Shown here piece by piece: positions 3,225 through 49,768 of a stretch of 64,000 bases of DNA; positions within the stretch are counted from its first letter, which is position 1, and each line of letters starts with the position of its first letter. The DNA lies in the IMG/VR virus record IMGVR_UViG_3300045996_000667, positions 27,546 through 91,545 of that record. One strand, 5' to 3'. The position numbers and the translations under genes were made by a program. Origin of the DNA: a virus (taxonomy: Duplodnaviria; Heunggongvirae; Uroviricota; Caudoviricetes). The notes under the pieces were generated by a model. The model made no database searches. It was given only the letters and a program-made list of their open reading frames with translations, and was not told the origin of the DNA.

Positions 3225-4358
3225 GTGGACGAAACACGACTGAAGATTCGCATTCTCGGCATCGCCCTGCAGGCCAACGTTCCCACCGTCATCGAATCCG
3301 ATCCGGGTGAAGCGAAGAGCTCCATCATGGCGGAAGTGTTCAATTCCTACAGGTGGCCGTTCAAGATCGTGAACGGTTCCTACATGGATCCTACCGACGT
3401 CGGAGGCTGGCCCATCAACGACAACGGAGCAATCATCCGCCAGGCTCCGAAGTGGGCTGTGGACTTCTCCGAGAAAACGCTGGGCGAGGAATCCGCTGCC
3501 ATCTTCTTGGAGGAACTGAATCTGGCTCCCAAGGCCGTTCAGAGCGCCTTCATGCGAGTCGTCCATGACCGTGAGGTTGGCGACATGAAACTGGGCGTCA
3601 ACGTCCGTCGTGTCGCGGCCATCAACCCGCCCGAGACGTCGGCCAACGGCTTCCTGTTCGACCCGCCGCTCGCCAATCGGTTCTTCCACCTCAAGTGGAA
3701 GCTGACCGTCGACTTCTGGACTCAGGCCATGATGGCCAACTTCCCGAAGATCGAAGCCCCCAGCCTGCCCGACTTCTGGGAGACGTATGTCCCGCAGTCG
3801 CAGGCAATCATCGCCGGCTTCATCATGCGCAAGAGCAATTTGATGAAGGCCATCCCGTCCGATGAATCACAGCGCAGCGGGCCGTTCCCGACGCCGCGCT
3901 CGTGGACCATGGCTGCTCGGCTCTGGGCTGCCGCCGACTCCATCGGTGCCGGTGAAGACGTTCGCCTCTCCCTTCTCGAGGGATGCGTCGGAACTGGCGC
4001 TGCTCGTGAATACCACACCTACCGCACCAGCATGGACCTGCCGAAGCCCGAGGACATGCTGAAGGACCCGAAGAAGGTCGTCTGGCCGAAGCGTGGTGAC
4101 CAGATCTACGCCGCCCTGTCATCGCTGGTAGGCTACGTGGCAGAGCGTGGCCAGCCTGACATCTGGGTCAAGTCATGGTCCGTCATGAACCACGTGGCCA
4201 AGACCCACCAGGACGTCGTCGTCGCCCTCGCGAAGCCGCTCGCCGCTCGCAGACCGGCAGGCGTGACCAAGCTGCCGGACAACTCCGAGATCGAGCACAT
4301 GTACAACTCGGTCGTTCTCGCATCCCGAGTCAAGGCTGAAAAGGCTGCGAGCAAATAA
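3225..4358 (+). CDS. MoxR/RavA-like AAA+ ATPase
   Basis: GTG start after AGGAG; deviant Walker A 'DPGEAKSS' as in RavA 'GPPGIAKS'; 'FLEELN' Walker B; 'NPPE...ANRF' sensor region. Confidence 0.6.
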   Translation: MDETRLKIRILGIALQANVPTVIESDPGEAKSSIMAEVFNSYRWPFKIVNGSYMDPTDVGGWPINDNGAIIRQAPKWAVDFSEKTLGEESAAIFLEELNLAPKAVQSAFMRVVHDREVGDMKLGVNVRRVAAINPPETSANGFLFDPPLANRFFHLKWKLTVDFWTQAMMANFPKIEAPSLPDFWETYVPQSQAIIAGFIMRKSNLMKAIPSDESQRSGPFPTPRSWTMAARLWAAADSIGAGEDVRLSLLEGCVGTGAAREYHTYRTSMDLPKPEDMLKDPKKVVWPKRGDQIYAALSSLVGYVAERGQPDIWVKSWSVMNHVAKTHQDVVVALAKPLAARRPAGVTKLPDNSEIEHMYNSVVLASRVKAEKAASK

Positions 4359-4361
4359 CAC

Positions 4362-5705
4362 ATGCCTCCGAGTCAGACATCACCGGCAGAACTGCTAGCT
4401 AAATCGACACCTCAGCAGAAGCTGGCAGCAGTCAAGATACTCGCCATGGACAACAGGCCGTACTTCAGTGCGGCCTATCACGCCCTTGTGCCAGTCGAAG
4501 TGGAGGACAAGTTCTTCCCGCAGGGACAGGCCACGATGGCTGTCGACAAGCACTGGCGACTCTACTGGGCACCGGGAATCTTCGACAAGTGGACCATCCC
4601 AGAGGTCGCCGGCGTGCTCTACCACGAGCTGAGCCACCTTCTGGGAGAACACTTCCAGCGGGCGGAAAAGTACGGCGAAGAATTCAACCAGACGGTATGG
4701 ATGGTAGCCACTGACTGCGCTATCAACTCGACCATCCAGTCAGAGATGGACGAACTGGCAAAGTCGGCCGCTACCAAGACAATCGAGGGCCTTCCCAAGG
4801 AAGGCTGCCTTCCCGAGAAGTGCAACCCGCCGCTGCCGAAAGGACAGACGGCCGAGTTCTACTACGAAGAACTGCTAAAGCAGGCCGAGAAGTCGCCCAA
4901 GTTCAAGGCCATCTTGGAGGGCATGGCGGCCAACTCGGACTGCGGTTCCGGCCAGCACGGTCAGCGTTGCGACCATGAACTGGCAACCGGTGCCAATGAT
5001 GACCGGCATGGCGGGCTGTCAGAAGCTGACGTCACGATGGTCAGGCTTCAGGTCGCCCATGACATCAAGGAGCAGGCTGGTAAGAAGGCCGGCAGCGTGC
5101 CGGGAGGCTGGGAACGCTGGGCCGACGACATCATGCAGCCGCAGGTCGATTACATGCGCTGGATTCGCGCAGCTGTCAGCAATGCCTATCAGGGCGTGGC
5201 TGGCAGGATCGACTATTCCTGGACGCGCCGCCATCGTCAGCAGGACGCCTACGGCAGATTCATCATGCCTGGCATGTATGCCCCTGATGTCAACGTTGGC
5301 ATAGTTGTCGACACGTCAGGCTCGATGAGTCAGGACCAGATCAGTCAGTGCGTGGCAGAAATCGGCAAGGCTCTGTCATGCCTTGGCAACAAGGAAGTCG
5401 TGGTCGCCTCCTGCGATTCCGGTGTCCACTCTATTCAGCGCATCACCCACAAGGGCCAGCTCGCACTCAGAGGTGGTGGTGGCACTGACATGGGTGTCGG
5501 CATTGCCAAGCTCGAAGAGGTTCGCCCGAAGATCAACCTGATGATCCTCCTGACAGACTGCGAAACGCCTTGGCCCGCCAAGCCGCCAAAGGCCAAGCTC
5601 GTACTCGTCAAGGTGGAAGGGAGCGGAGCGCCGCCGCCCTGGCCATGCTCGCTCGTGGAAATCGACCTCAAACGGCTCGGAACCAAGCAGAAGCAGGTAG
5701 CGTAA
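4362..5705 (+). CDS. VWA-domain protein with N-terminal HExxH metallopeptidase-like domain (DUF2201-like); partner of the AAA ATPase
   Basis: 'YHELSHLLGEH' HExxH; MIDAS 'VVDTSGSMS'. Confidence 0.65.
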   Translation: MPPSQTSPAELLAKSTPQQKLAAVKILAMDNRPYFSAAYHALVPVEVEDKFFPQGQATMAVDKHWRLYWAPGIFDKWTIPEVAGVLYHELSHLLGEHFQRAEKYGEEFNQTVWMVATDCAINSTIQSEMDELAKSAATKTIEGLPKEGCLPEKCNPPLPKGQTAEFYYEELLKQAEKSPKFKAILEGMAANSDCGSGQHGQRCDHELATGANDDRHGGLSEADVTMVRLQVAHDIKEQAGKKAGSVPGGWERWADDIMQPQVDYMRWIRAAVSNAYQGVAGRIDYSWTRRHRQQDAYGRFIMPGMYAPDVNVGIVVDTSGSMSQDQISQCVAEIGKALSCLGNKEVVVASCDSGVHSIQRITHKGQLALRGGGGTDMGVGIAKLEEVRPKINLMILLTDCETPWPAKPPKAKLVLVKVEGSGAPPPWPCSLVEIDLKRLGTKQKQVA

Positions 5706-21826: not shown

Positions 21827-22063
21827 CCCGTTTCCTCCCTCACTACAGAGGCTACCAGCCCCTGCCAGAATTCTTACCCTAACGAAGTAGGTTGCGAAAA
21901 TTTCCCATATCTGCCTACAATAGCCTTAGGGGAGGAGGCGGTGCTAGATCTTCTTCTTAGATAGGATCTATGTACTACACACAACTAGCTATACTTGTAC
22001 CAACGTGGAACTAAGAGTAGGGAAAAAACTAAAGAGCAGTTTTTTCGTAGGAGCGAAGCTCCT

Positions 22064-22087
22064 ACGGCGCTGACGCGCCTTTTTTCT
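22064..22087 (+). terminator. Rho-independent terminator-like hairpin plus T6
   Basis: GGCGCtgacGCGCC followed by TTTTTT. Confidence 0.45.
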
Positions 22088-22150
22088 GGAGGAAGAGACT
22101 GGCTTCGCCCTCGGGCAACCCCTGGAACCGGCCACGAGCGAAGAATTGTG

Positions 22151-22185
22151 TTGACACACACAAGGAGCTTGTGTATTATGTGTCT
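22151..22185 (+). promoter_or_regulatory. strong sigma70-like promoter TTGACA-N17-TATTAT
   Basis: Near-consensus -35 and -10 with exact 17-bp spacer; AGGAG SD before the ATG at 22220. Confidence 0.65.
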
Positions 22186-22219
22186 ATCGCTGACGGCAAC
22201 TAGCCCTCACAGGAGACAC

Positions 22220-22975
22220 ATGTCAAAGCTACACCAGTTGATCGCAGTGGACGCCACCCTCAAGGGGAAGGCCACCGCTACGCTCAAGGACCTGACCCAC
22301 ACCTTCAAGAGCAAGGCCCACCTTTTCAGCGGGCACAAGAAGGTCTTCTATCCCTCCGCTGACGGCCAGGAAACCTCTGTCGAGTCAGAGCTGGCGGTCA
22401 ACACCAATGTTCCGAAGGAACTGGAGTGGATCACCGCCATGTTGGCGCCGGCGTTCGACAACGCATTCCAGATCGCTCTCGGCAATTCGTCGGCCAAGGC
22501 AGACGTGATGCTCAGCGGGAACGTCACTTTCCTGAGCGGCATCCCTGCGACCGCGCTTCTCGAGCTGGACAAGCGACTGACCGAGATTCAGCTCTTCGTT
22601 CAGGCGATCCCGACGCTCGACCCTGCCAAGGGCTTCAAGCCGGCCGATGACCAGGGCCACGGCATCTACGAGGCTCGCACCGAGAAGAAGGCGCGGACGG
22701 CCAAGCAGCAGAAGGCGCTGGTGCTATATCCTGCCACCCCTGAGCATCCGGCTCAGACGCAGCTCATCAGCGAGGACGTCAAGGTTGGCGACCTCGTGAG
22801 CCAGGAGTGGAGCGGCCTCATCACCGTCACCGCCAAGGGCGACATGCTCGATCGCGTCGAGGAGCTGCGCGTGGCCGTGAAGCGCGCCCTGTCGAAGGCG
22901 AACGATACCAACGTCGACACTAACTCGACCATCGGCTCGAAGGTGCTCGGATACATCTTCAAGGGCACTAAGTGA
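22220..22975 (+). CDS. hypothetical protein, probably highly expressed
   Basis: ATG at 22220 with strong promoter and SD upstream; no recognisable motif. Confidence 0.6.
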   Translation: MSKLHQLIAVDATLKGKATATLKDLTHTFKSKAHLFSGHKKVFYPSADGQETSVESELAVNTNVPKELEWITAMLAPAFDNAFQIALGNSSAKADVMLSGNVTFLSGIPATALLELDKRLTEIQLFVQAIPTLDPAKGFKPADDQGHGIYEARTEKKARTAKQQKALVLYPATPEHPAQTQLISEDVKVGDLVSQEWSGLITVTAKGDMLDRVEELRVAVKRALSKANDTNVDTNSTIGSKVLGYIFKGTK

Positions 22976-23139
22976 TTGTCGAGAAACTGCTGGTCGCCGC
23001 ACGAGACGAAGACGGCGTGGCTCAGCGCGGGAACGACTTTTCAAAGAGCGCCAAACAGCGTGCGCTTTTGTTCCGCGAGGCCGCAGCAGAACTCCTAAGG
23101 CTTCAGGTCGAATTGGAGCACTTCAAGGCTTCGTCATAG
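22971..23139 (+). CDS. small helical protein
   Basis: GTG start overlapping the upstream stop. Confidence 0.3.
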
Positions 23140-23440
23140 GATTCCCGGCGGGTTGTCTCGTCTCACAGCTTTCGGCTTCTGCGAGAGAGGCTATTGGGCT
23201 GTGTTGGCCCGCCCGGAAACAACTTGGGAGGGGATCTAGCCTCGCTGGCAGGCCGCTGCTAGAGCAGCCTAGCCAATGATGCCCCTCCCGACAGTATCTT
23301 TGCCAGTCTCTAACCACACTGGCAGCAAGTGGGTATAGGCTTAAATTTAGGCTCAAGGTTAGAACCAGTCGGAGCTGGTATCAAGCTTAAGTGGATGCCC
23401 AAAAGGTTAACGAACGGCCAGCACGCCTATTAGCACGTCG

Positions 23441-23520
23441 GACCTTTACTGGAGGTCGCCGGTTCGAATCCGGTCCCGCGCCCCAAAAACACATGCGCGG
23501 GTAGCTCAGCGGTAGAGCGA
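23441..23520 (+). ncRNA. tRNA-like element in permuted order: 3' half (variable AGGTC, T-arm GGTTCGAATCC, acceptor CCCGCGC-C-CCA), 9-nt spacer, then 5' half (acceptor GCGCGGG plus canonical D-arm TAGCTCAGCGGTAGAGC)
   Basis: The two acceptor strands pair perfectly with each other but neither has a partner in the normal orientation. Confidence 0.35.
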
Positions 23521-23621
23521 CAGTCTTAATAGCCAACCGGCGTCGGCTAACAGGTGAGGATAGCTCGTTCGGCATGATCTGCTAGGGACCTGCTAATAGC
23601 TCCTAGCGCTATCATACGATT

Positions 23622-23654
23622 ACAGGGCCGGTATTCAGGAACGAAGCCGGCCCT
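23622..23654 (+). other. stable hairpin (9-bp perfect stem CAGGGCCGG/CCGGCCCTG)
   Basis: Inverted repeat seen in the sequence; no T-run. Confidence 0.4.
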
Positions 23655-23667
23655 GCCTTAACTGCCC

Positions 23668-23820
23668 ATGACACCATCTGAAAAAGACTACTACCGCTAC
23701 TACGGGGAGACAGCTACAGAATGCTGTGAACAGTGCGGCAGATGGCACGACATTAACAAGAATCCCTGCAACAGGAAACAGGCTGCCAAAGTAGCAGCCG
23801 ACTCTGGCCCCGTCGATTAG
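23668..23820 (+). CDS. small Cys-containing peptide
   Basis: 50-aa ORF 'MTPSEKDYYRYYGETATECCEQCGRW...'; its 3' end overlaps the tRNA-like element. Confidence 0.3.
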   Translation: MTPSEKDYYRYYGETATECCEQCGRWHDINKNPCNRKQAAKVAADSGPVD

Positions 23821-23876
23821 CGGCAGGTCGTGCCCTCTTAGAGGGTGAGACGCGGGTTCGAATCCCGCCGGGGCCG
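23806..23876 (+). tRNA. tRNA-like gene with atypical anticodon arm (possible anticodon UUA)
   Basis: Perfect 7-bp acceptor GGCCCCG/CGGGGCC; T-arm GCGGG-TTCGAAT-CCCGC; anticodon region folds as CCCTC-TTA-GAGGG rather than a 7-nt loop. Confidence 0.35.
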
Positions 23877-23914
23877 TGCTTACACAACGAACGAGGCGTC
23901 ACCGCACGCCTACA

Positions 23915-23929
23915 ATGCACAATGTGCAA
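23915..23929. repeat. palindrome variant ATGCACAATGTGCAA
   Basis: 36 nt upstream of tRNA-Leu. Confidence 0.8.
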
Positions 23930-23950
23930 GAGGTGTAAGGCAACTTTTTA

Positions 23951-24034
23951 GGGACTGTGGTGGAAAGGCATACACGGCGGTCTTAGGAACCGCTGGGGCA
24001 ACCCGTGAAGGTTCAAATCCTTTCAGTCCCACCA
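23951..24034 (+). tRNA. tRNA-Leu (anticodon UAG), class II
   Basis: Acceptor GGGACTG/CAGTCCC; AC stem GCGGT/ACCGC; loop CTTAGGA; 13-nt variable arm; T-loop TTCAAAT; encoded CCA. Confidence 0.6.
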
Positions 24035-24040
24035 ACTCTC

Positions 24041-24277
24041 ATGGATTACAAGCTTCCTGACGGAACTCGTACTGACTTCCATCTTCTCTATCTCGAGAAG
24101 TGGTCCAAGGCTGCGCAGAAGCTTGACAGCCTGTTCAAGCCGCTCGGGTATCGATGCAATGCATACGATCCTGACTTCTCTATGGTGAGCGACGAGAGGG
24201 TCAACGGCATGAAAATGTACCACTCATTCACGCTACCAGCTCATGTAGCGATGTTCTTGATATCCCAGGTGAAATAG
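24041..24277 (+). CDS. hypothetical protein
   Basis: ATG at 24041 in frame with track ORF 24005..24277. Confidence 0.5.
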   Translation: MDYKLPDGTRTDFHLLYLEKWSKAAQKLDSLFKPLGYRCNAYDPDFSMVSDERVNGMKMYHSFTLPAHVAMFLISQVK

Positions 24278-24278
24278 C

Positions 24279-24515
24279 GTGCGCAAGTATTTGGTTCCCA
24301 GCTTTACCGTTCTAGTAGCGGTCTGTGTTTTCTTCGCTTTCATCCCTACCACCACGGTACCGGAACTGCCGACAAGCCCTGAGGCGTTCATTGCTGATCG
24401 CACACCAAGCGCACCACTCGTTTTCTATTTCAACGAGGTAGTCTTGGAGACGCCGAAGCCACCAAAGCGCAAAGTCCGCGCGACGTACCGATACGAGCGG
24501 CGGTTCGATAAGTAA
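24279..24515 (+). CDS. small secreted/membrane protein
   Basis: GTG start; N-terminal hydrophobic segment. Confidence 0.5.
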   Translation: MRKYLVPSFTVLVAVCVFFAFIPTTTVPELPTSPEAFIADRTPSAPLVFYFNEVVLETPKPPKRKVRATYRYERRFDK

Positions 24516-24521
24516 CAATTC

Positions 24522-24602
24522 GGGGAATTGGCCCAGCCTGGTCTACGGCGCTCGCTTTGGGAGCGAGAAATATCGGGGGTTCGAATCCCTCATTCCCCAC
24601 CA
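24522..24602 (+). tRNA. tRNA-Pro (anticodon UGG)
   Basis: Acceptor GGGGAAT/ATTCCCC; D-arm TGGCCCAGCCTGGT resembles E. coli tRNA-Pro; AC stem CTCGC/GCGAG; loop TTTGGGA; encoded CCA. Confidence 0.65.
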
Positions 24603-24603
24603 C

Positions 24604-24690
24604 GGAGAGTCGGGCTATTGGCTGGCCAAGCAGTCTTGAAAACTGTCGCCGGTAAAACGGCTGGGGGTTCGATTCCCTCACTCTCCGCCA
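24604..24690 (+). tRNA. tRNA-Ser (anticodon UGA), class II
   Basis: Acceptor GGAGAGT/ACTCTCC; loop CTTGAAA; long variable arm CGCCGGTAAAACGGCT; T-loop TTCGATT; encoded CCA. Confidence 0.6.
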
Positions 24691-24698
24691 CTCTTTAA

Positions 24699-24775
24699 GC
24701 CACCGTAGCTCAATCCGGTAGAGCAGCACATTTGTAATGTGACGGTTGCGGGTTCGATTCCTGCCGGTGGCTCCA
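24699..24775 (+). tRNA. tRNA-Thr (anticodon UGU)
   Basis: Acceptor GCCACCG/CGGTGGC; D-arm TAGCTCAATCCGGTAGAGC; loop TTTGTAA; T-loop TTCGATT; encoded CCA. Confidence 0.65.
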
Positions 24776-24841
24776 TCCTACCTAATACATTAGCTATCCT
24801 GTTAGGGTAAGTATTCTGGGTATGTCCTGTAAGCTAGCGAC

Positions 24842-25147
24842 ATGCTCAAGAAACTAGGCTTGCTGGCTGCCGGGGCTGTGTTTGGAGTCCTCATCTCCTT
24901 CGCACCAACAGCCTACGCACAGCTCACCATCAACTCTGGCGCTGTCATCTCGACGGACGTGTATGGCAATACCGTCATCGGGAACGGTAATTCTGCCACT
25001 CTCTTCCGGTCATCCCTGGCCGCTCCTACCAACACCAGCAACGGCATGTGCTGGATTCAGATCACGGGGTCTGGTACACGCACAGCCGAAATCAAGTGCA
25101 ATGACAACGGCGACGTTGTCACGCTGGCACAGGTCGTCAACCCATAA
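24842..25147 (+). CDS. small secreted protein (signal peptide, AYA|Q)
   Basis: N-terminal 'MLKKLGLLAAGAVFGVLISFAPTAYA'. Confidence 0.55.
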   Translation: MLKKLGLLAAGAVFGVLISFAPTAYAQLTINSGAVISTDVYGNTVIGNGNSATLFRSSLAAPTNTSNGMCWIQITGSGTRTAEIKCNDNGDVVTLAQVVNP

Positions 25148-29740: not shown

Positions 29741-29827
29741 GGCGTAGTATACCGTTAGGGAGGCGGGCCGGTCTGTAGAACCGGCGGCCTAGTGCCTCGC
29801 GTGGTTCGACTCCACGATGCGCCACCA
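29741..29827 (+). tRNA. tRNA-Tyr (anticodon GUA), class II
   Basis: AC stem CCGGT/ACCGG; loop CTGTAGA; long variable arm; T-arm CGTGG-TTCGACT-CCACG; encoded CCA; D-arm assignment uncertain. Confidence 0.5.
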
Positions 29828-29843
29828 ACTTGTGTCTTTAGGT

Positions 29844-29927
29844 GTGGCCGATGGTAGTGTTGGACGCCGAGAGGCCTGCCACCGGACTGTGAATCCGGCC
29901 ACGCGGGTTCGATTCCCGCCGGTCACC
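29844..29927 (+). tRNA. tRNA-His-like (anticodon GUG) with about 12 extra nt in the D region
   Basis: Acceptor GTGGCCG/CGGTCAC with discriminator C; AC arm CCGGA-CTGTGAA-TCCGG; T-arm GCGGG-TTCGATT-CCCGC; 31 nt between acceptor and AC stem instead of ~19; no CCA. Confidence 0.35.
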
Positions 29928-30155
29928 CCTAAGGGCGCAACTGAGTCAGTCGTCTAGAAGCCTAGGATACTCGTCTCCAAAACCTGTGACGCTGGTGCGA
30001 ATCCAGCCTGACTCGCCAATGTATAAATTTCTCGCATTCATCGACGCTGCTTTTTGCGCTGTTAAAGGACACAAGGTCCAGTGGCGAGCAAGCGAAGCCA
30101 AGTGCTGCGTTATCTGTGACACGTGCAACCTTCTGCATTGGTGTAGACAAGTCGG

Positions 30156-31398: not shown

Positions 31399-31608
31399 AT
31401 GCTTGTCGTTAATCTGCTAGCCCTGCTAGCTCTGCTCTGTCTCGCCACGTTCGCGGTGTCCGTTGGCGCGTCAGTGGCCACCCAGTTGGCCATGTATTAC
31501 AGCGCCATCGTGGCCGTGTTCGTCATCCTTGGCACCGTCGTTCTGGTAGGCGCAGGACTCTCTGCCACCCTGCCCGTTCTCCTTCGAAAGGTCTTCAAGC
31601 GTGCTTAA
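31399..31608 (+). CDS. small 2-TM membrane protein (possible NfeD-like partner)
   Basis: Hydrophobic 69 aa immediately upstream of the SPFH gene. Confidence 0.5.
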   Translation: MLVVNLLALLALLCLATFAVSVGASVATQLAMYYSAIVAVFVILGTVVLVGAGLSATLPVLLRKVFKRA

Positions 31609-32455
31609 GAAGTTCGCCGTTCTCGCAGTCGTGGCAATGATGGCCACCGCCTGCACCACCGTCAAGCCTGGCACCGTTGGCATCGAGGTCAACAACTACG
31701 GCGCTGGCCGTGGCGTTCAGGACTATCCGATTCGGACAGGTCGCGTTATCTATAACCCGATCACGACCGACGTCTACGTGTTCCCGACGTCGCAGCAGCG
31801 CGCCCAGTGGTCGAAGTCCTCAGAAGAGGGCGGCGCGAACACGTCCGTCGAGTGCCGATCAAAGGAGGGCACGCAGGTCGCTCTCGATATCGCGGTCGCT
31901 TATCAGTTCACAGCCGACAAGGTGCCGGCGCTGTTCGTGAAGTTCCGCCAGTCCGCAGATGAAATTACGAGCAGCTATGTGCGGGATCAGGTTCGCAAGT
32001 CTCTGTGCTCAGTCACCGAGAAGATGCCGATTCTGGACATCCTCGGCCCGCGACTGACCGAGGTTGGCGACTCTGCCAAGAACCTCGTCAACACCGATAC
32101 GGCCGCCTACGGCATCACGTTCGACTACGTGAACATCATCGGCAAGCCGCACGTTGCATCGTCCGTCGAGCAGGCGATCAACAACGTCATCCAGCAGGTT
32201 CAGGCAGCCAATCAGGCCGAGGCCAAGACTCGCCAGATCACAGCCGAAGCTGCGCAGGCCATCGAGCGCGCCAAGGGCGAGGCACAGTCCATCGAGCTGA
32301 CAGCGCTGGCCCAAGCTAAGGCGAACGAAATCATCGCCAAGTCGCTGGAGCAGTTTGGCGACAAGGTGCTGCAGTCGAAGGCCATCGAGAAGTGGAACGG
32401 CGTATTGCCGACCGTAACAAGCACCGGAGCGGTGCCTTTCATTCCTGTCAAGTAA
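31601..32455 (+). CDS. SPFH/band-7 (flotillin/HflK-like) lipoprotein
   Basis: Lipobox-like 'MMATAC'; SPFH-like core '...QVALDIAVAYQFTADKVPALFVKF'; Ala/Glu-rich C-terminal coiled coil. Confidence 0.6.
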   Translation: MLKKFAVLAVVAMMATACTTVKPGTVGIEVNNYGAGRGVQDYPIRTGRVIYNPITTDVYVFPTSQQRAQWSKSSEEGGANTSVECRSKEGTQVALDIAVAYQFTADKVPALFVKFRQSADEITSSYVRDQVRKSLCSVTEKMPILDILGPRLTEVGDSAKNLVNTDTAAYGITFDYVNIIGKPHVASSVEQAINNVIQQVQAANQAEAKTRQITAEAAQAIERAKGEAQSIELTALAQAKANEIIAKSLEQFGDKVLQSKAIEKWNGVLPTVTSTGAVPFIPVK

Positions 32456-35510: not shown

Positions 35511-35680
35511 TGTCGAACTACCAGTTCGCTGCGGTTCTGGCAGGAATCCCAGCGACACTAGGCATGGCACATCTGGCCATGTATCTGCGCTTTGGTATAC
35601 CTGCCGAAGGCTGGGCGTCGTTAACCTGCTTGTTCCTGTCAGTGCCAGGATGGGTCAAGCTTTTCAGGACTAAGAATAAG
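35510..35680 (+). CDS. small 2-TM membrane protein
   Basis: 56-aa hydrophobic ORF; TAAGTGA coupling to the next gene. Confidence 0.35.
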
Positions 35681-36978
35681 TGAGCTATCAGGCAATAGTT
35701 ACTAGTTTGCACAATGTGCGAAAGCATCCCAACGCGGATCGCTTGAACCTCGCCACTGTGCATGGCCACCAGGTGGTGGTCGGCCTCGAGGCCAAGGAAG
35801 GTGATCGAGGCGTGTTCTTCCCCTGCGACGGGCAACTCTCCGAGGCCATGGCCGAGGCTAACGACCTTGTCGGCTACACTGACCCAGCCACCGGAGAGAA
35901 GAAGGGTGGCTTCTTCGCGAAGAATCGCAGGGTGCGAGCGCAGAAGTTTCGTGGTGAGAAGTCTGACGGCTTCTTCATCGAGCTTGACAAATTGGCCTTT
36001 ACCGGCTATGATCTGTCTACTCTGGAGGACGGCTTCGCCTTCACAGAGCTAGGCGGCGTTCAGGTCTGTCAGAAGTATTACACTCCTGCCACGCGGGCCA
36101 AGATGTCCAGACCTGGTCAGGCGCGCAAGCAGCGCAACCTGATCTTCCCTGAGCACATCGACACAGCCCAGTTCCGCTACAACTCACATCGCATCCCTGT
36201 CGGCGCGGTCGTGTACATCACCGAGAAGGCGCATGGCACTTCTGGCAGGTATGGCAATGTGGCAGAGACGACGCCGATGTCAGGCTGGCAGAAGTTCTGG
36301 GCCAAGCTGGCAGGATTCATCGGAAGGTTTGACCCTGCAACAGAGTTCTTCGGCTATCAGCATCTGTCAGGCTCTCGCCGGGTAGTGCTGGACAAGCAGC
36401 CAGAAGCTGCCAGTTACTACGGGACCAACAGTTTCCGCGAGGACGTCGTCGCCGGCATCGAGCTGCACAAGGGCGAAGTGCTCTACTTCGAGATTGTTGG
36501 CGACGTGGCAGAAGGTCAGCCCATCATGCCTGTCCACACTGTCAAGGATGAACTGAAGGACATCCAGAAGCAGTATGGCAAGAAGATGGATTACAGGTAT
36601 GGCACATTGTCAGGCGAACACAAGATGCTTGTGTATCGTGTGACTCGGCTCAACGAGGACGGCGTCGAAACAGACCTGTCGTGGCAACAGGTCAAGCAGC
36701 GGTGCAAGGAGCTGGGCCTGCAGACTGTGCCGGAACTGGACATGATGTTCACGACTGACGATAGTGACATCTCTCGCCAGATGTTGACAGACACTGTCGA
36801 GGCGCTAACAGACGGCCCGTCAACACTGGACAGCTCGCACATTCGCGAGGGTGTCGTGGTGCGCGTCGAGTCTGACCAGGGCACGTGGTTCTTCAAGAAC
36901 AAGTCGTGGGCCTTCGGCGTACTGGAAGGCTACATCAAGGACTCGGACACCTACGTGGATACCGAGGAAGCAGCGTGA
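35680..36978 (+). CDS. RNA ligase (Rnl2-like) with N-terminal tRNA-binding (CsaA/Trbp111-like) domain
   Basis: N-terminal 'HPNADRLNLATVHGHQVVVGLEAKEGD...FPCDG'; ligase motif I 'ITEKAHGTSGR' (cf. T4 Rnl2 'EKIHGTN'); 'EGVVVRVE...FFKNKSWAF' motifs IV/V. Confidence 0.75.
   Translation: MSYQAIVTSLHNVRKHPNADRLNLATVHGHQVVVGLEAKEGDRGVFFPCDGQLSEAMAEANDLVGYTDPATGEKKGGFFAKNRRVRAQKFRGEKSDGFFIELDKLAFTGYDLSTLEDGFAFTELGGVQVCQKYYTPATRAKMSRPGQARKQRNLIFPEHIDTAQFRYNSHRIPVGAVVYITEKAHGTSGRYGNVAETTPMSGWQKFWAKLAGFIGRFDPATEFFGYQHLSGSRRVVLDKQPEAASYYGTNSFREDVVAGIELHKGEVLYFEIVGDVAEGQPIMPVHTVKDELKDIQKQYGKKMDYRYGTLSGEHKMLVYRVTRLNEDGVETDLSWQQVKQRCKELGLQTVPELDMMFTTDDSDISRQMLTDTVEALTDGPSTLDSSHIREGVVVRVESDQGTWFFKNKSWAFGVLEGYIKDSDTYVDTEEAA
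35707..35721. repeat. palindrome variant TTGCACAATGTGCGA
   Basis: Codons 10-14 of the RNA ligase gene. Confidence 0.85.
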
Positions 36979-48787: not shown

Positions 48788-48977
48788 GGTCTTTGGTCAT
48801 CCAGTGAATGTCGATGTCCCAGTCGTTGAGTTCCTTGCCAGGCAACACTTTCACTAAATCTAGCGGCTTGAACTTCTTAGCGGCTTCCTCTGCTTCTGCG
48901 AACGAGTTTGCCGTTACGTCAACTCCCACCTGAAGCACGACTTTAAACGTTACGTGAACTTTCTGTTTCTCTGCCAT
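48780..48977 (-). CDS. hypothetical protein
   Basis: ORF track. Confidence 0.45.
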   Translation of the reverse strand: MAEKQKVHVTFKVVLQVGVDVTANSFAEAEEAAKKFKPLDLVKVLPGKELNDWDIDIHWMTKDLG

Positions 48978-49768
48978 TAGCCCTTGTAAACCTTGCCATT
49001 TACCGCAAAGCGGTTGTTAGTAATAACGACTACGGAGTCGTTGTAGGACCCGTCTGGGAAGATGTAGCCGTAGAGGAAGCCTGTGAGCCAGCTGTTAGGC
49101 GCGCTTCTGCCATAGCCAGGAGCCTTTTTGCAAAGGCACGGCACAGCGATCGAAGTGCGGGCGTCTGTAATATCAATAGCGCTAATCTTCGTAGCACTCT
49201 GAAAAGTGTGGAAATGGCCATAGCGGATCGACCTTTCGTAGGCGAGGATGGCGGCATTCGCGTGGTAGCGCCCGCCCAACGTGTCGCCGTGCATGAAGTG
49301 CAGCTTGCCAATCTTGGCAACGCCGCCCTGAGGGATGACCGTCCAGCCGGACTCTGTCAGCCCGAGGAGCTGGTCGATGTCGACAATGCCTTCCAGACCT
49401 GGGTAGTCCTCGAGGAGGTCTAGGAGAAAGCGCTCATGATTGCCAAGGATGATGATCTTCTGGGCGTCACCGGCCACTTCGTTGATAGGAGCGAGGAGGC
49501 CGTCCTTGGCGTGGCGGGTATCCTCGACAACGCGAAGCCCCTCGATGGACTTGCGCTTGCTCTTGTTCCAATGGGAAACGGCGCCCAGATCGAGCAGGTC
49601 GCCACCGTGAATGAAGATGTCTGGCTTGAAATCCGAGGCGAACTGCAGGACCGCGTCAATCGCCCGCGCGTCGTGCATCTCGACCTTCTTGCCCTGCTTA
49701 TTCTCAGACCCGTAGTGCGTGTCGGTGATGAAAATAAACTTCTTGGGCTCCTTGTTCTTTTCTGCCAA
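48977..49768 (-). CDS. calcineurin-like metallophosphoesterase
   Basis: 'ITDTHYG', 'HGGDLLD', 'ILGNHERF', 'GHFH' motifs. Confidence 0.75.
   Translation of the reverse strand: MAEKNKEPKKFIFITDTHYGSENKQGKKVEMHDARAIDAVLQFASDFKPDIFIHGGDLLDLGAVSHWNKSKRKSIEGLRVVEDTRHAKDGLLAPINEVAGDAQKIIILGNHERFLLDLLEDYPGLEGIVDIDQLLGLTESGWTVIPQGGVAKIGKLHFMHGDTLGGRYHANAAILAYERSIRYGHFHTFQSATKISAIDITDARTSIAVPCLCKKAPGYGRSAPNSWLTGFLYGYIFPDGSYNDSVVVITNNRFAVNGKVYKG

What the first reader, a model, noticed from the sequence alone, without database searches (positions are those of the whole stretch)
23441..23520. tRNA halves in permuted order with perfectly complementary acceptor strands
At 23441-23486 there is a canonical tRNA 3' portion: variable loop AGGTC, T-arm GCCGG-TTCGAAT-CCGGT, acceptor CCCGCGC, discriminator C, CCA. 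No complementary 5' acceptor strand lies upstream. Nine nucleotides later (23496) begins a canonical tRNA 5' portion: GCGCGGG-TA-GCTC-AGCGGTA-GAGC. Its downstream sequence forms no anticodon or T arm. The two halves are each other's exact acceptor partners. This arrangement (3' half, short linker, 5' half) is that of circularly permuted tRNA genes or two-piece tmRNA genes, neither known in phages. It could alternatively be the scar of a recombination or integration event within a tRNA gene.
Basis: seen in the sequence. Interest (0 to 1): 0.65.

Follow-up and report, generated by a model that had tools for sequence, protein, structure and literature searches.

The report
tRNA-mimic RNA partnered with DUF7873
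The "scrambled tRNA" is real: it is the tRNA-shaped core of a conserved non-coding RNA that follows one uncharacterised gene (DUF7873) in hundreds of phages and bacteria, and it resembles bacterial Y RNAs but I found it annotated nowhere.

Summary
A T arm, a 3' acceptor strand, C-CCA, a 9-nt linker, a perfectly complementary 5' acceptor strand and a D arm lie in that order. No tRNA or tmRNA is called there. It is neither a scar nor a permuted tRNA gene. It is the tRNA-like domain of a structured RNA placed directly downstream of a DUF7873 gene. A covariance model built without the window, from elements found through the protein, hits 23436-23543 at 78 bits (E 2e-26). 67 of 80 DUF7873 loci in IMG/VR carry the element within 750 nt downstream, against 0 in 378 kb elsewhere on that strand. 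All five helices covary. The same pair occurs in 70 of 80 bacterial loci fetched (at least 586 found) and in cultured phages, unannotated. The closest known kind is YrlA, the tRNA-like bacterial Y RNA. Rfam scores stay below threshold (39 vs 69 bits), the Ro60-binding motif is not enriched, and Ro60 genes are adjacent in only a few loci. The encoded N-CCA (76%) and U at -1 (62%) suggest RNase P opens the acceptor loop, as in M. smegmatis YrlA. The function is inferred: a tRNA-mimicking RNA-protein particle.

The parts
22151..22179 (+). sigma-70-like promoter (TTGACA-17-TATTAT, 11/12), preceded by a terminator-like hairpin at 22066-22079; probable start of the DUF7873 + RNA transcription unit
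   Evidence: it is the only promoter-like site in 22000-24900, and none lies between the gene and the RNA. Consensus match only.
22220..22975 (+). DUF7873 gene (251 aa from the first Met; PF25283, E 5.5e-65)
   Evidence: The AF2 model has pLDDT 91.9 and shows (beta-beta-alpha) x3. No structural or sequence relative of known function was found.
23222..23423 (+). probable 5' domain of the RNA (boundaries uncertain): long hairpin GGGAGGGG...CCCCUCCC (23227-23291), hairpin 23301-23325, and repeats of RCU-YAR (GGCUUAAA, AGGCUCAAGG, GUUAGA, AAGCUUAAG), ending in the family motif CCCAAAAGG
   Evidence: The YAR-RCU motif occurs 140 times vs 32 +/- 5 expected in the 150 nt upstream of family elements. 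The homology of the window's 5' part is only loosely alignable.
23424..23441 (+). 5' strand of the stalk (pairs with 23537-23556)
   Evidence: MFE fold. Family-wide, own flanks pair better than swapped flanks (-31.1 vs -23.1 kcal/mol).
23448..23452 (+). anticodon-stem analogue, 3' side (tRNA positions 39-43, ACUGG)
   Evidence: this helix is 93% paired and shows all six pair types.
23453..23457 (+). variable loop AGGUC (C48 can form the Levitt pair with G15)
23458..23474 (+). T arm GCCGG-UUCGAAU-CCGGU
23475..23481 (+). 3' acceptor strand CCCGCGC
   Evidence: all 7 pairs covary, 100% paired in 45 sequences
23482..23485 (+). discriminator C plus encoded CCA
   Evidence: N-CCA is present in 59 of 78 family elements
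23486..23494 (+). remainder of the acceptor loop AAAACACAU, ending in U(-1); presumed 3' trailer, with the RNase P site between 23494 and 23495
   Evidence: U at -1 in 48 of 78 elements. Cleavage is inferred, not shown.
23495..23501 (+). 5' acceptor strand GCGCGGG
23502..23518 (+). U8-A9 and D arm GCUC-AGCGGUA-GAGC (with G18 G19)
23519..23524 (+). G26 and anticodon-stem analogue, 5' side (27-31, ACAGU)
23525..23536 (+). 3' side of the internal loop, reading C32-U33-UAA-U-A GCCAA (half of an anticodon loop)
   Evidence: U-YAR at this position in 61 of 89 elements vs 31.5 expected
23537..23556 (+). 3' strand of the stalk
23436..23543 (+). extent of the match to family covariance model R1 (78.0 bits)

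Best explanation
The two tRNA halves are one unit: the tRNA-like domain of a structured non-coding RNA of roughly 120-340 nt (about 23222/23424 to 23556). It is co-transcribed with the DUF7873 gene just upstream, and together they form a conserved two-part module found in phages and bacteria. The domain keeps the nucleotides an L-shaped tRNA body needs (U8, G15-C48, G18G19, T54-A58, G53-C61). Its acceptor stem is a hairpin, and its anticodon stem opens into a stalk formed by the RNA's own flanks. This is the architecture of YrlA-type bacterial Y RNAs. In the window's copy the acceptor loop reads C-CCA-AAAACACA-U(-1). I infer that RNase P cuts before G23495 and that 3' exonucleases trim back to CCA. 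That would give a two-piece RNA with a tRNA-like end, held together by the acceptor stem, the anticodon-stem analogue and the stalk, as shown experimentally for M. smegmatis YrlA. I infer that the particle acts as a tRNA mimic, either as a scaffold or as a decoy. It would bind DUF7873 and tRNA-recognising host or phage enzymes, and Ro60 where present, in tRNA surveillance, repair or counter-defence. That fits its position inside phage tRNA gene arrays. Shown: family membership, structure, and synteny with DUF7873. Inferred: co-transcription, RNase P processing, protein binding and function.
For: Family and structure:
- Model R1, built from 25 protein-anchored elements without the window, hits 23436-23543 at 78.0 bits, E 2.4e-26. 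The next hits (24.7 bits or less) are junctions between neighbouring tRNAs.
- On 106 aligned matches, 96.7% of cells pair vs 59.5% in shuffles, and all 20 pairs show double changes. On an unfitted MAFFT alignment the acceptor stem pairs in 100% of cells and the T stem in 99%.
- Acceptor stems differ in every locus, for example GCGCGGG, CGGCCCU and GGCCCUU.

Synteny, tested in both directions:
- A DNA-pattern search found elements, and 14 of 14 with enough flank have DUF7873 just upstream.
- A protein search found 348 viral loci. Of 80 fetched, 67 carry the element within 750 nt downstream. Elsewhere there are 0 hits in 378 kb on the same strand, 1 in 438 kb on the opposite strand, and 2 in 2.19 Mb of shuffled DNA. 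The model R1 recovers most of the remaining loci.
- In bacteria, at least 586 loci in species-representative genomes encode DUF7873, and 70 of 80 fetched have 1-2 elements after the gene.
- In cultured phages (Gordonia Ziko, Klebsiella KpLz-2_45, Rhizobium RHph_TM30) the element is unannotated and lies within tRNA arrays.

Processing signals: N-CCA in 59 of 78 elements, U(-1) in 48 of 78. The precedent is RNase P cleavage and a CCA tail on M. smegmatis YrlA, which has a 7-bp stem (PMC4201824).

Transcription: there is a promoter-like site only upstream of the gene.

Link to Y RNAs:
- The only Rfam family matched is YrlA (31-42 bits).
- TROVE (Ro60) genes lie adjacent on the same strand in L085, L120, L072 and L199.
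- RNA-repair genes lie nearby: RlaP in one related viral locus, Band_7 in two related loci and in the window, and an Rnl-type RNA ligase in the window (context from PMC7824862).
Against: - There are no expression or end-mapping data, so transcription, cleavage and stability are untested.
- The local MFE is no better than shuffles (z = -0.68), and it prefers an alternative V hairpin that competes with the anticodon-stem analogue.
- DUF7873-RNA binding rests on synteny alone. The protein has no recognisable RNA-binding fold.
- 19 of 78 elements lack CCA and close the acceptor stem with a long coaxial hairpin, so a free CCA end cannot be the family's common requirement.
- Ro60 is adjacent in only about 4 of 160 loci, and none was found in the window's ORFs of 326 aa or more.
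- Bacterial neighbours are unconserved, with 104 Pfam families among 108 flanking ORFs. This gives no pathway context.
Confidence: 0.6

Rival explanations
1. It is a genuine YrlA Y RNA. It is bound through its stalk by a Ro60 (Rsr) protein, supplied by the host or encoded elsewhere in the phage, and tethers it to an exoribonuclease such as PNPase. DUF7873 would be incidental or accessory.
For: RF02553 is the only Rfam family hit, and the match is full-length over the same T / acceptor-like / D order. TROVE genes sit next to the DUF7873-RNA pair on the same strand in L085, L120, L072 and L199. That meets the proximity criterion of Chen et al..
Against: Scores of 31-42 bits stay under the gathering score of 69 everywhere, and are absent at E<=0.01 in the TROVE-adjacent loci that were scanned (L085, L120), which are the ones that matter most. 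The Rsr-site motif GNCGAAN0-1G occurs in 4 of 89 elements vs 3.97 expected. No TROVE domain was found in the window or among the 25 most frequent of 104 Pfam families hit by 108 ORFs flanking the bacterial loci; a phmmer search with the phage TROVE proteins over all 80 bacterial loci hit only L199. DUF7873 was not found in Mycobacterium phages, the classical Ro60/YrlA carriers as I recall them.
Confidence: 0.2
2. It is a cis-acting processing or stability element. The tRNA-like 3' UTR recruits RNase P to separate the DUF7873 mRNA from the downstream tRNA array, or it protects the mRNA's 3' end. It would have no role in trans.
For: It lies directly after the stop codon with no promoter of its own. 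tRNA genes follow it. The RNase P determinants U(-1) and N-CCA are enriched.
Against: A mere cleavage signal does not need a D arm, a covarying anticodon-stem analogue and stalk, a conserved 5' domain with repeated motifs, or tandem copies. Variants with a closed hairpin lack the cleavage signals. The bacterial copies are not followed by tRNA arrays.
Confidence: 0.12
3. It is a circularly permuted tRNA gene. The transcript's ends would be cut and ligated (the phage encodes an RNA ligase) and the acceptor loop opened, yielding a working tRNA, possibly reading Leu codons.
For: All tRNA body elements are present. U33 followed by a Leu-type triplet (UAA in the window; CAG/UAG/UAA/CAA/AAG in 35 of 51 elements) sits at the anticodon position. 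An Rnl-type ligase is encoded at 35680-36978.
Against: No bulge-helix-bulge motif or known bacterial splicing endonuclease applies, from established knowledge of the Cyanidioschyzon and archaeal systems. Position 37 is U in the window. The discriminator varies (U25, C22, A16, G15), whereas Leu identity needs A73. There is a short variable loop instead of the class II arm. The conserved stalk and 5' domain would be discarded. Closed-stem variants exist. The dedicated protein partner would be unexplained.
Confidence: 0.04
4. It is a two-piece (permuted) tmRNA gene.
For: The gene order matches (3' acceptor with CCA, linker, 5' acceptor). An upstream small-protein gene recalls the smpB-ssrA arrangement. 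There is a partial 24.8-bit beta_tmRNA match over the tRNA-like domain of L135.
Against: ARAGORN, which models permuted tmRNAs, finds none. No tmRNA family matches at E<=10 in the window. There is a canonical D stem and no G3:U70. No conserved tag reading frame exists among relatives. DUF7873 has no SmpB-like fold.
Confidence: 0.02
5. It is a recombination or integration scar, or the remnants of two decayed tRNA genes.
For: It lies beside a tRNA cluster. Junctions between neighbouring tRNAs do give weak hits to the same models (also noted in PMC4201824).
Against: Conservation in more than 100 loci from phages and bacteria, with compensatory changes in every helix, fixed synteny and enriched processing signals.
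Confidence: 0.01

Closest known systems
YrlA (Rfam RF02553), the tRNA-like bacterial and phage Y RNAs bound by Ro60/Rsr (Chen et al. 2014, PMC4201824)
   Same: The order is the same: V, T arm, acceptor-like hairpin, D arm, mounted on a stem formed by the RNA's 5' and 3' parts. The tRNA tertiary nucleotides are kept. Both closed and RNase P-opened acceptor versions exist (M. smegmatis YrlA has a 7-bp stem, is cut by RNase P and carries CCA). Tandem copies occur (YrlA and YrlB). Both occur in phages.
   Different: Rfam scores are about half the gathering score. The Ro60-site motif is not enriched. The constant neighbour is DUF7873, not Ro60. CCA is usually encoded rather than added. There is an extra 5' domain with a GNRA hairpin and RCU-YAR repeats, and a half anticodon loop (U33-YAR) facing the internal loop.
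Two-piece tmRNA genes (alpha-proteobacteria, some cyanobacteria and beta-proteobacteria)
   Same: Permuted gene order with an encoded CCA, an excised linker, and two RNA pieces held together by base pairing.
   Different: No tag frame, pseudoknot series, G3:U70 or SmpB. The D arm is canonical here. The large domain lies upstream of the tRNA-like part, not downstream.
Circularly permuted tRNA genes of Cyanidioschyzon merolae and other algae and archaea
   Same: The 3' half lies upstream of the 5' half with a short linker across the acceptor ends. RNase P and 3' processing are presumed to open the linker.
   Different: Those genes mature through a bulge-helix-bulge splice and a circular intermediate into a normal tRNA. 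Here the anticodon-side ends are extended into a conserved stalk and domain, and nothing indicates joining.
tRNA-like processing signals and mimics (mascRNA of MALAT1, plant-virus 3' tRNA-like structures)
   Same: A tRNA shape inside a longer transcript is recognised by RNase P or the CCA-adding enzyme.
   Different: Those have normal strand order or pseudoknotted acceptors. None has a dedicated upstream protein gene or this permutation.

Membership tests
DUF7873-associated tRNA-like RNA (family defined here, model R1) | Match to a covariance model built from other members | tested here: met
   78.0 bits, E 2.4e-26 at 23436-23543. The model was built without the window sequence.
DUF7873-associated tRNA-like RNA (family defined here, model R1) | Located on the same strand within about 750 nt downstream of a DUF7873 gene | tested here: met
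   The gene ends at 22975 and the T arm starts at 23458. This holds in 67 of 80 viral and 70 of 80 bacterial loci.
DUF7873-associated tRNA-like RNA (family defined here, model R1) | Flanks pair to form an anticodon-stem analogue and a stalk | tested here: met
   The window has 4 bp CAGU/ACUG plus 16 bp of stalk. Family-wide, 4.04 of 5 positions pair vs 2.86 for swapped partners, and the helix is 93% paired.
YrlA (RF02553) | Reaches Rfam's gathering score (69 bits) | tested here: not met
   39.3 bits in the window and 31-42 bits in relatives.
YrlA (RF02553) | tRNA-like module in the order T arm, acceptor-like stem-loop, D arm | tested here: met
YrlA (RF02553) | GNCGAAN0-1G motif near the 5' end (presumed Rsr contact; PMC4201824) | tested here: not met
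   The window has GUCGGAC at the aligned position. The motif occurs in 4 of 89 family members vs 3.97 in shuffles.
YrlA (RF02553) | Encoded near a Ro60/TROVE gene on the same strand | tested here: not met
   No TROVE domain in the window's ORFs of 326 aa or more. It is met in only 4 related loci: L085, L120, L072 and L199. The rest of the source genome was not visible.
YrlA (RF02553) | Bound by Ro60/Rsr in vivo | not testable with these tools
   Needs immunoprecipitation or binding assays.
Two-piece tmRNA | Tag reading frame with a resume codon; alanine identity G3:U70; reduced D arm | tested here: not met
   ARAGORN finds none. No tmRNA Rfam hit at E<=10. The third pair is G3-C70 and the D stem is a full 4 bp. 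No frame is conserved among relatives.
Canonical tRNA gene | Contiguous cloverleaf with an anticodon arm | tested here: not met
Permuted tRNA gene (Cyanidioschyzon type) | 3' half, linker, 5' half, with complementary acceptor strands | tested here: met
Permuted tRNA gene (Cyanidioschyzon type) | Termini form a bulge-helix-bulge splice motif that yields a closed 7-nt anticodon loop and a functional tRNA | tested here: inconclusive
   The flanks form a long stalk with an asymmetric 6/12-nt internal loop, and no 3-nt bulges are evident. Whether the ends are joined cannot be tested without RNA data.

The most novel reading that the evidence does not exclude
DUF7873 plus its tRNA-like RNA is a previously unrecognised, self-contained ribonucleoprotein. 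It occurs in at least 586 loci of bacterial species-representative genomes and in hundreds of phages. Its RNA presents a full tRNA body, an acceptor end made by RNase P, and several leucine-anticodon-like loops (RCU-YAR). It would work as a decoy, sensor or adaptor in conflicts centred on tRNA, for example by soaking up or reporting anticodon nucleases or acceptor-end toxins. That would make it a new class alongside Ro60-Y RNA and tmRNA-SmpB.
Probability: 0.3. Interest if true: 0.9.

Novelty: new variant of a known kind. Interest (0 to 1): 0.72.

Why it matters
A tRNA-shaped RNA with a dedicated partner gene of unknown fold recurs across Actinomycetota, Myxococcota, Planctomycetota, Acidobacteriota and phages of Vibrio, Klebsiella, Rhizobium, Ralstonia, Gordonia and cyanobacteria. 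Yet it is absent from Rfam, and the three cultured-phage records I inspected do not annotate it; in Gordonia phage Ziko it is overlapped by a called CDS.

Three things would follow if the reading is right:
- It would give DUF7873 a first functional handle.
- It would extend the Y RNA (tRNA-mimic) idea beyond Ro60.
- It would bear on why phages carry tRNA arrays, because the module sits inside them.

It also flags a systematic annotation gap: tRNA finders skip it, and gene callers place short ORFs over it.

Tried and rejected
- Intron-split tRNA: I looked for a 5' acceptor partner upstream. GCGCGGG at 23025 is not followed by a D arm.
- tmRNA: ARAGORN and the Rfam tmRNA models find nothing. I read the relatives by eye for a conserved tag frame and found none.
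- Close phage relatives by DNA: only a tRNA-sized match to Pelagibacter phage HTVC011P.
- Exact 21-mer of the T arm plus acceptor strand in IMG/VR: 0 hits.
- Conserved neighbours: none beyond DUF7873 in phages or in bacteria.
- YrlA Rsr-site motif: not enriched.
- Literature: 'DUF7873' gives 0 papers. Searches for permuted tRNA in phages, tRNA-like decoys, and Y RNAs in phages found nothing describing this module. Two key reviews and papers were not held, and the supplements of Chen et al. were not held either.
- Full fold of the 5' domain: RNAalifold on five close relatives gave a plausible but weakly supported model. I did not resolve it.

Full report
**1. Observation**

The sequence at 23441-23520 is as described. 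In order it reads:
- variable loop AGGUC (23453-57);
- T arm GCCGG-UUCGAAU-CCGGU (23458-74);
- CCCGCGC (23475-81), then C and CCA (23482-85);
- nine bases AAAACACAU (23486-94);
- D arm GCUC-AGCGGUA-GAGC (23504-18).

The acceptor strands are 7/7 complementary. ARAGORN finds eight tRNAs in the window but nothing here, and no tmRNA. Rfam at gathering thresholds likewise finds nothing here. The single upstream GCGCGGG (23025) is a chance heptamer, with 11 matches in the window against 13.4 expected, and no D arm follows it.

**2. First lead**

A permissive Rfam scan gave one relevant hit: RF02553 YrlA ('Y RNA-like'). The match is full-length over 23435-23546 at 39.3 bits, E 1.2e-6, below the gathering score of 69.

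Chen et al. 2014 described YrlA RNAs (PMC4201824). They carry a tRNA-like module in exactly this order: V, T arm, an acceptor-like stem closed by a loop, then the D arm. The module sits on a stem made by the RNA's ends. They were reported near Ro60 genes in 254 bacteria and 22 phages. M. smegmatis YrlA has a 7-bp acceptor-like stem, is cut by RNase P and carries CCA. So the 'permuted halves' layout has a known precedent, including in phages.

**3. Relatives and synteny**

The ORF just upstream (22220-22975) is a DUF7873 protein (PF25283, E 5.5e-65). Its two closest IMG/VR relatives carry the same element downstream, with quite different but still perfectly paired acceptor stems and a conserved C-CCA-AAAAA loop.

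I tested the link in both directions.
- From the RNA side: a DNA pattern that used only the T loop and the loop sequence retrieved 51 viral loci, about 16 of them with the permuted layout. All 14 with enough upstream DNA have DUF7873 immediately upstream on the same strand.
- From the protein side: a protein-profile search found 348 viral loci. In 67 of the 80 fetched, a simple layout detector finds 78 elements within 750 nt downstream of the gene. It finds 0 in 378 kb elsewhere on that strand, 1 in 438 kb on the opposite strand, and 2 in 2.19 Mb of shuffled sequence.

A covariance model built from 25 of these protein-anchored elements, without the window, scores the window site at 78.0 bits (E 2.4e-26). 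The next window hits (24.7 bits or less) are junctions between adjacent tRNAs. The model also recovers most loci the detector missed. The closest relative, L054, has about 115 nt inserted in the acceptor loop.

**4. Structure**

On an unfitted MAFFT alignment of 45 elements, the acceptor stem pairs in 100% of cells, the T stem in 99% and the D stem in 94%, with double changes at every pair. On the model-fitted alignment of 106 matches, 96.7% of cells pair against 59.5% in shuffles. The anticodon-stem analogue reaches 93% with all six pair types, although that alignment leans toward the model.

A test independent of any alignment gives the same answer. Each element's own flanks form 4.04 of 5 anticodon-stem pairs, against 2.86 for swapped partners. 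Own flanks also form a more stable duplex, -31.1 against -23.1 kcal/mol.

In the window the stalk is 23424-23441 with 23537-23556. That MFE is not better than shuffles (z = -0.68).

Upstream lies a 5' domain. In the L001-type relatives it begins with a GNRA-capped hairpin, followed by a helix (UUGGGUG with CACCCAA) whose sequence differs between relatives while the pairing is kept. It contains repeats of an RCU-YAR string, 140 occurrences against 32 +/- 5 expected. The same string sits at tRNA positions 32-38 just after the anticodon-stem analogue: U33 followed by CAG, UAG, UAA, CAA or AAG in 35 of 51 cases. All of these are leucine anticodons. I could not decide whether these strings are anticodon-loop mimics, protein-binding sites, or strands of helices or kissing contacts.

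**5. Processing signals**

In the unbiased, protein-anchored set, the 3' acceptor strand is followed by N-CCA in 59 of 78 elements. The base before the 5' acceptor strand is U in 48 of 78. Loops run from 7 to 43 nt.

U(-1), a 12-bp acceptor/T helix and a 3' CCA are known bacterial RNase P determinants (established knowledge). Together with the M. smegmatis precedent, this points to cleavage before G23495 and trimming back to A23485.

The 19 elements without CCA instead extend the acceptor stem with a coaxial hairpin. A free CCA end therefore cannot be what the whole family needs. This argues for mimicry of the tRNA body rather than aminoacylation.

**6. Distribution and context**

DUF7873 has about 950 relatives in the protein collection. 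It occurs in 74 sequenced phages: Vibrio, Gordonia, Rhizobium, Klebsiella and Serratia jumbo phages, Arthrobacter, Ralstonia phiRSL1, Rhodococcus and cyanophages. Every listed record that carries annotation calls it a 'hypothetical protein'.

In Ziko, KpLz-2_45 and RHph_TM30 the gene lies within or next to tRNA genes. It is followed by an unannotated gap holding the element, and in Ziko a called CDS overlaps it.

At least 586 loci in bacterial species-representative genomes also encode DUF7873. In 70 of 80 fetched loci, one or two tandem elements follow the gene, and the first often has a tRNA-Leu-type D arm. Bacterial neighbours are not conserved, with 104 Pfam families among 108 flanking ORFs. 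The module therefore looks self-contained.

Ro60 (TROVE) genes lie adjacent on the same strand in L085, L120, L072 and L199. A DUF2828/DUF7788 protein lies adjacent in L073, and RlaP, Band_7, TPM and Metallophos genes also occur nearby. The window itself has an Rnl-type RNA ligase, Band_7 and a MoxR-vWA pair, but no TROVE protein. Iyer et al. 2021 note that some jumbo phages pair ROT/TROVE with a tRNA-like RNA within RNA-repair gene sets (PMC7824862).

**7. The protein**

**8. Interpretation**

Identity is well supported (about 0.9): the finding is the tRNA-like domain of a conserved DUF7873-linked non-coding RNA.

The mechanism is inferred, with these rough probabilities:
- co-transcription from the promoter-like site at 22151-22179;
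- RNase P opening of the acceptor loop in this copy (about 0.5-0.6);
- action as a tRNA-mimicking particle with DUF7873, and sometimes Ro60, in tRNA surveillance, repair or counter-defence (about 0.35).

Rivals:
- A true Ro60-dependent YrlA (0.2). It fails the score, motif and neighbour tests.
- A purely cis-acting processing or stability element (0.12). It does not explain the D arm, stalk, 5' domain or tandem copies.
- A permuted tRNA gene that matures into a tRNA (0.04).
- A two-piece tmRNA (0.02).
- A recombination scar (0.01).

**9. Novelty**

The kind of RNA is known: a tRNA-mimic non-coding RNA with a closed or RNase P-opened acceptor stem, also found in phages. This lineage is not. It is absent from Rfam 15 at any family's threshold. 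It has a different constant protein partner, extra RNA features and a very wide distribution. I found no paper on it in the held library. I therefore rate it a new variant of a known kind, with a real chance that the DUF7873-RNA pair is a distinct ribonucleoprotein system.

Noticed in passing
window 23805-23877 (+): This tRNA has anticodon UUA. ARAGORN calls it 'tRNA-Stop', and Rfam's tRNA model scores it 48.8 bits. It is a possible ochre (UAA) suppressor at the head of the phage tRNA array, which hints at stop-codon readthrough or recoding.
   Followed up: no
window 23805-24775 and 29741-30018 (+): Two tRNA clusters lie here: Stop, Leu, Pro, Ser and Thr, then Tyr, His and Trp. The DUF7873-RNA module sits immediately upstream of the first cluster, as in Gordonia phage Ziko. 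In Rhizobium phage RHph_TM30 the module lies inside the tRNA array.
   Followed up: partly
window 35680-36978 (+), 31601-32455 (+), 3225-5705 (+), 48977-49768 (-): These ORFs have an RNA-repair or conflict flavour: an Rnl-type RNA ligase (PF09414, phrog_968, weak TIGR02306), a Band_7/SPFH protein, a MoxR-like AAA_5 protein with DUF2201 (vWA-like metallopeptidase), and a Metallophos protein.
   Followed up: partly
window 23227-23291 (+): A long hairpin, GGGAGGGG...CCCCUCCC, lies between the DUF7873 gene and the tRNA-like domain. It may be an expanded form of the GNRA-capped hairpin that opens the RNA in relatives. A 55-aa ORF (22972-23139) also lies in this spacer, and L001 has an ORF at the same place.
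   Followed up: no
L001 27-142 and about 330-420: A tRNA-like sequence (Rfam tRNA, 48.4 bits) carries a 47-nt insertion in the D loop, and a second similar copy lies about 300 nt downstream. These may be tRNAs with D-loop insertions. A weak second YrlA-like hit lies at L001 195-317.
   Followed up: no
L137-L216 (bacterial loci), e.g. L203 4830-5030, L154 4811-5070: Bacterial DUF7873 genes are followed by two tandem permuted tRNA-like domains about 150 nt apart. The first usually has a class II / tRNA-Leu-type D arm (GCGGAAUUGGUAGACGC or GCCCAA..GGCAGAGGC). About 11 viral loci also have tandem copies.
   Followed up: partly
L054 3960-4140: The closest IMG/VR relative of the window's DUF7873 carries the element about 700 nt further downstream, after two inserted ORFs. 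It has about 115 nt inserted in the acceptor loop and one mismatch in the acceptor stem.
   Followed up: partly
L134 (Gordonia phage Ziko, MK919478.1) 3988-4197: The annotated CDS gp126 ('hypothetical protein') overlaps the 5' part of the tRNA-like element (T54 at 4158; model R1 match 4132-4263). It is probably a spurious gene call over an RNA gene.
   Followed up: partly
window 23668-23820 (+): A 50-aa ORF runs into the 5' end of the suppressor-like tRNA at 23805. A G+C-rich hairpin without a U tract (23623-23656) precedes it.
   Followed up: no
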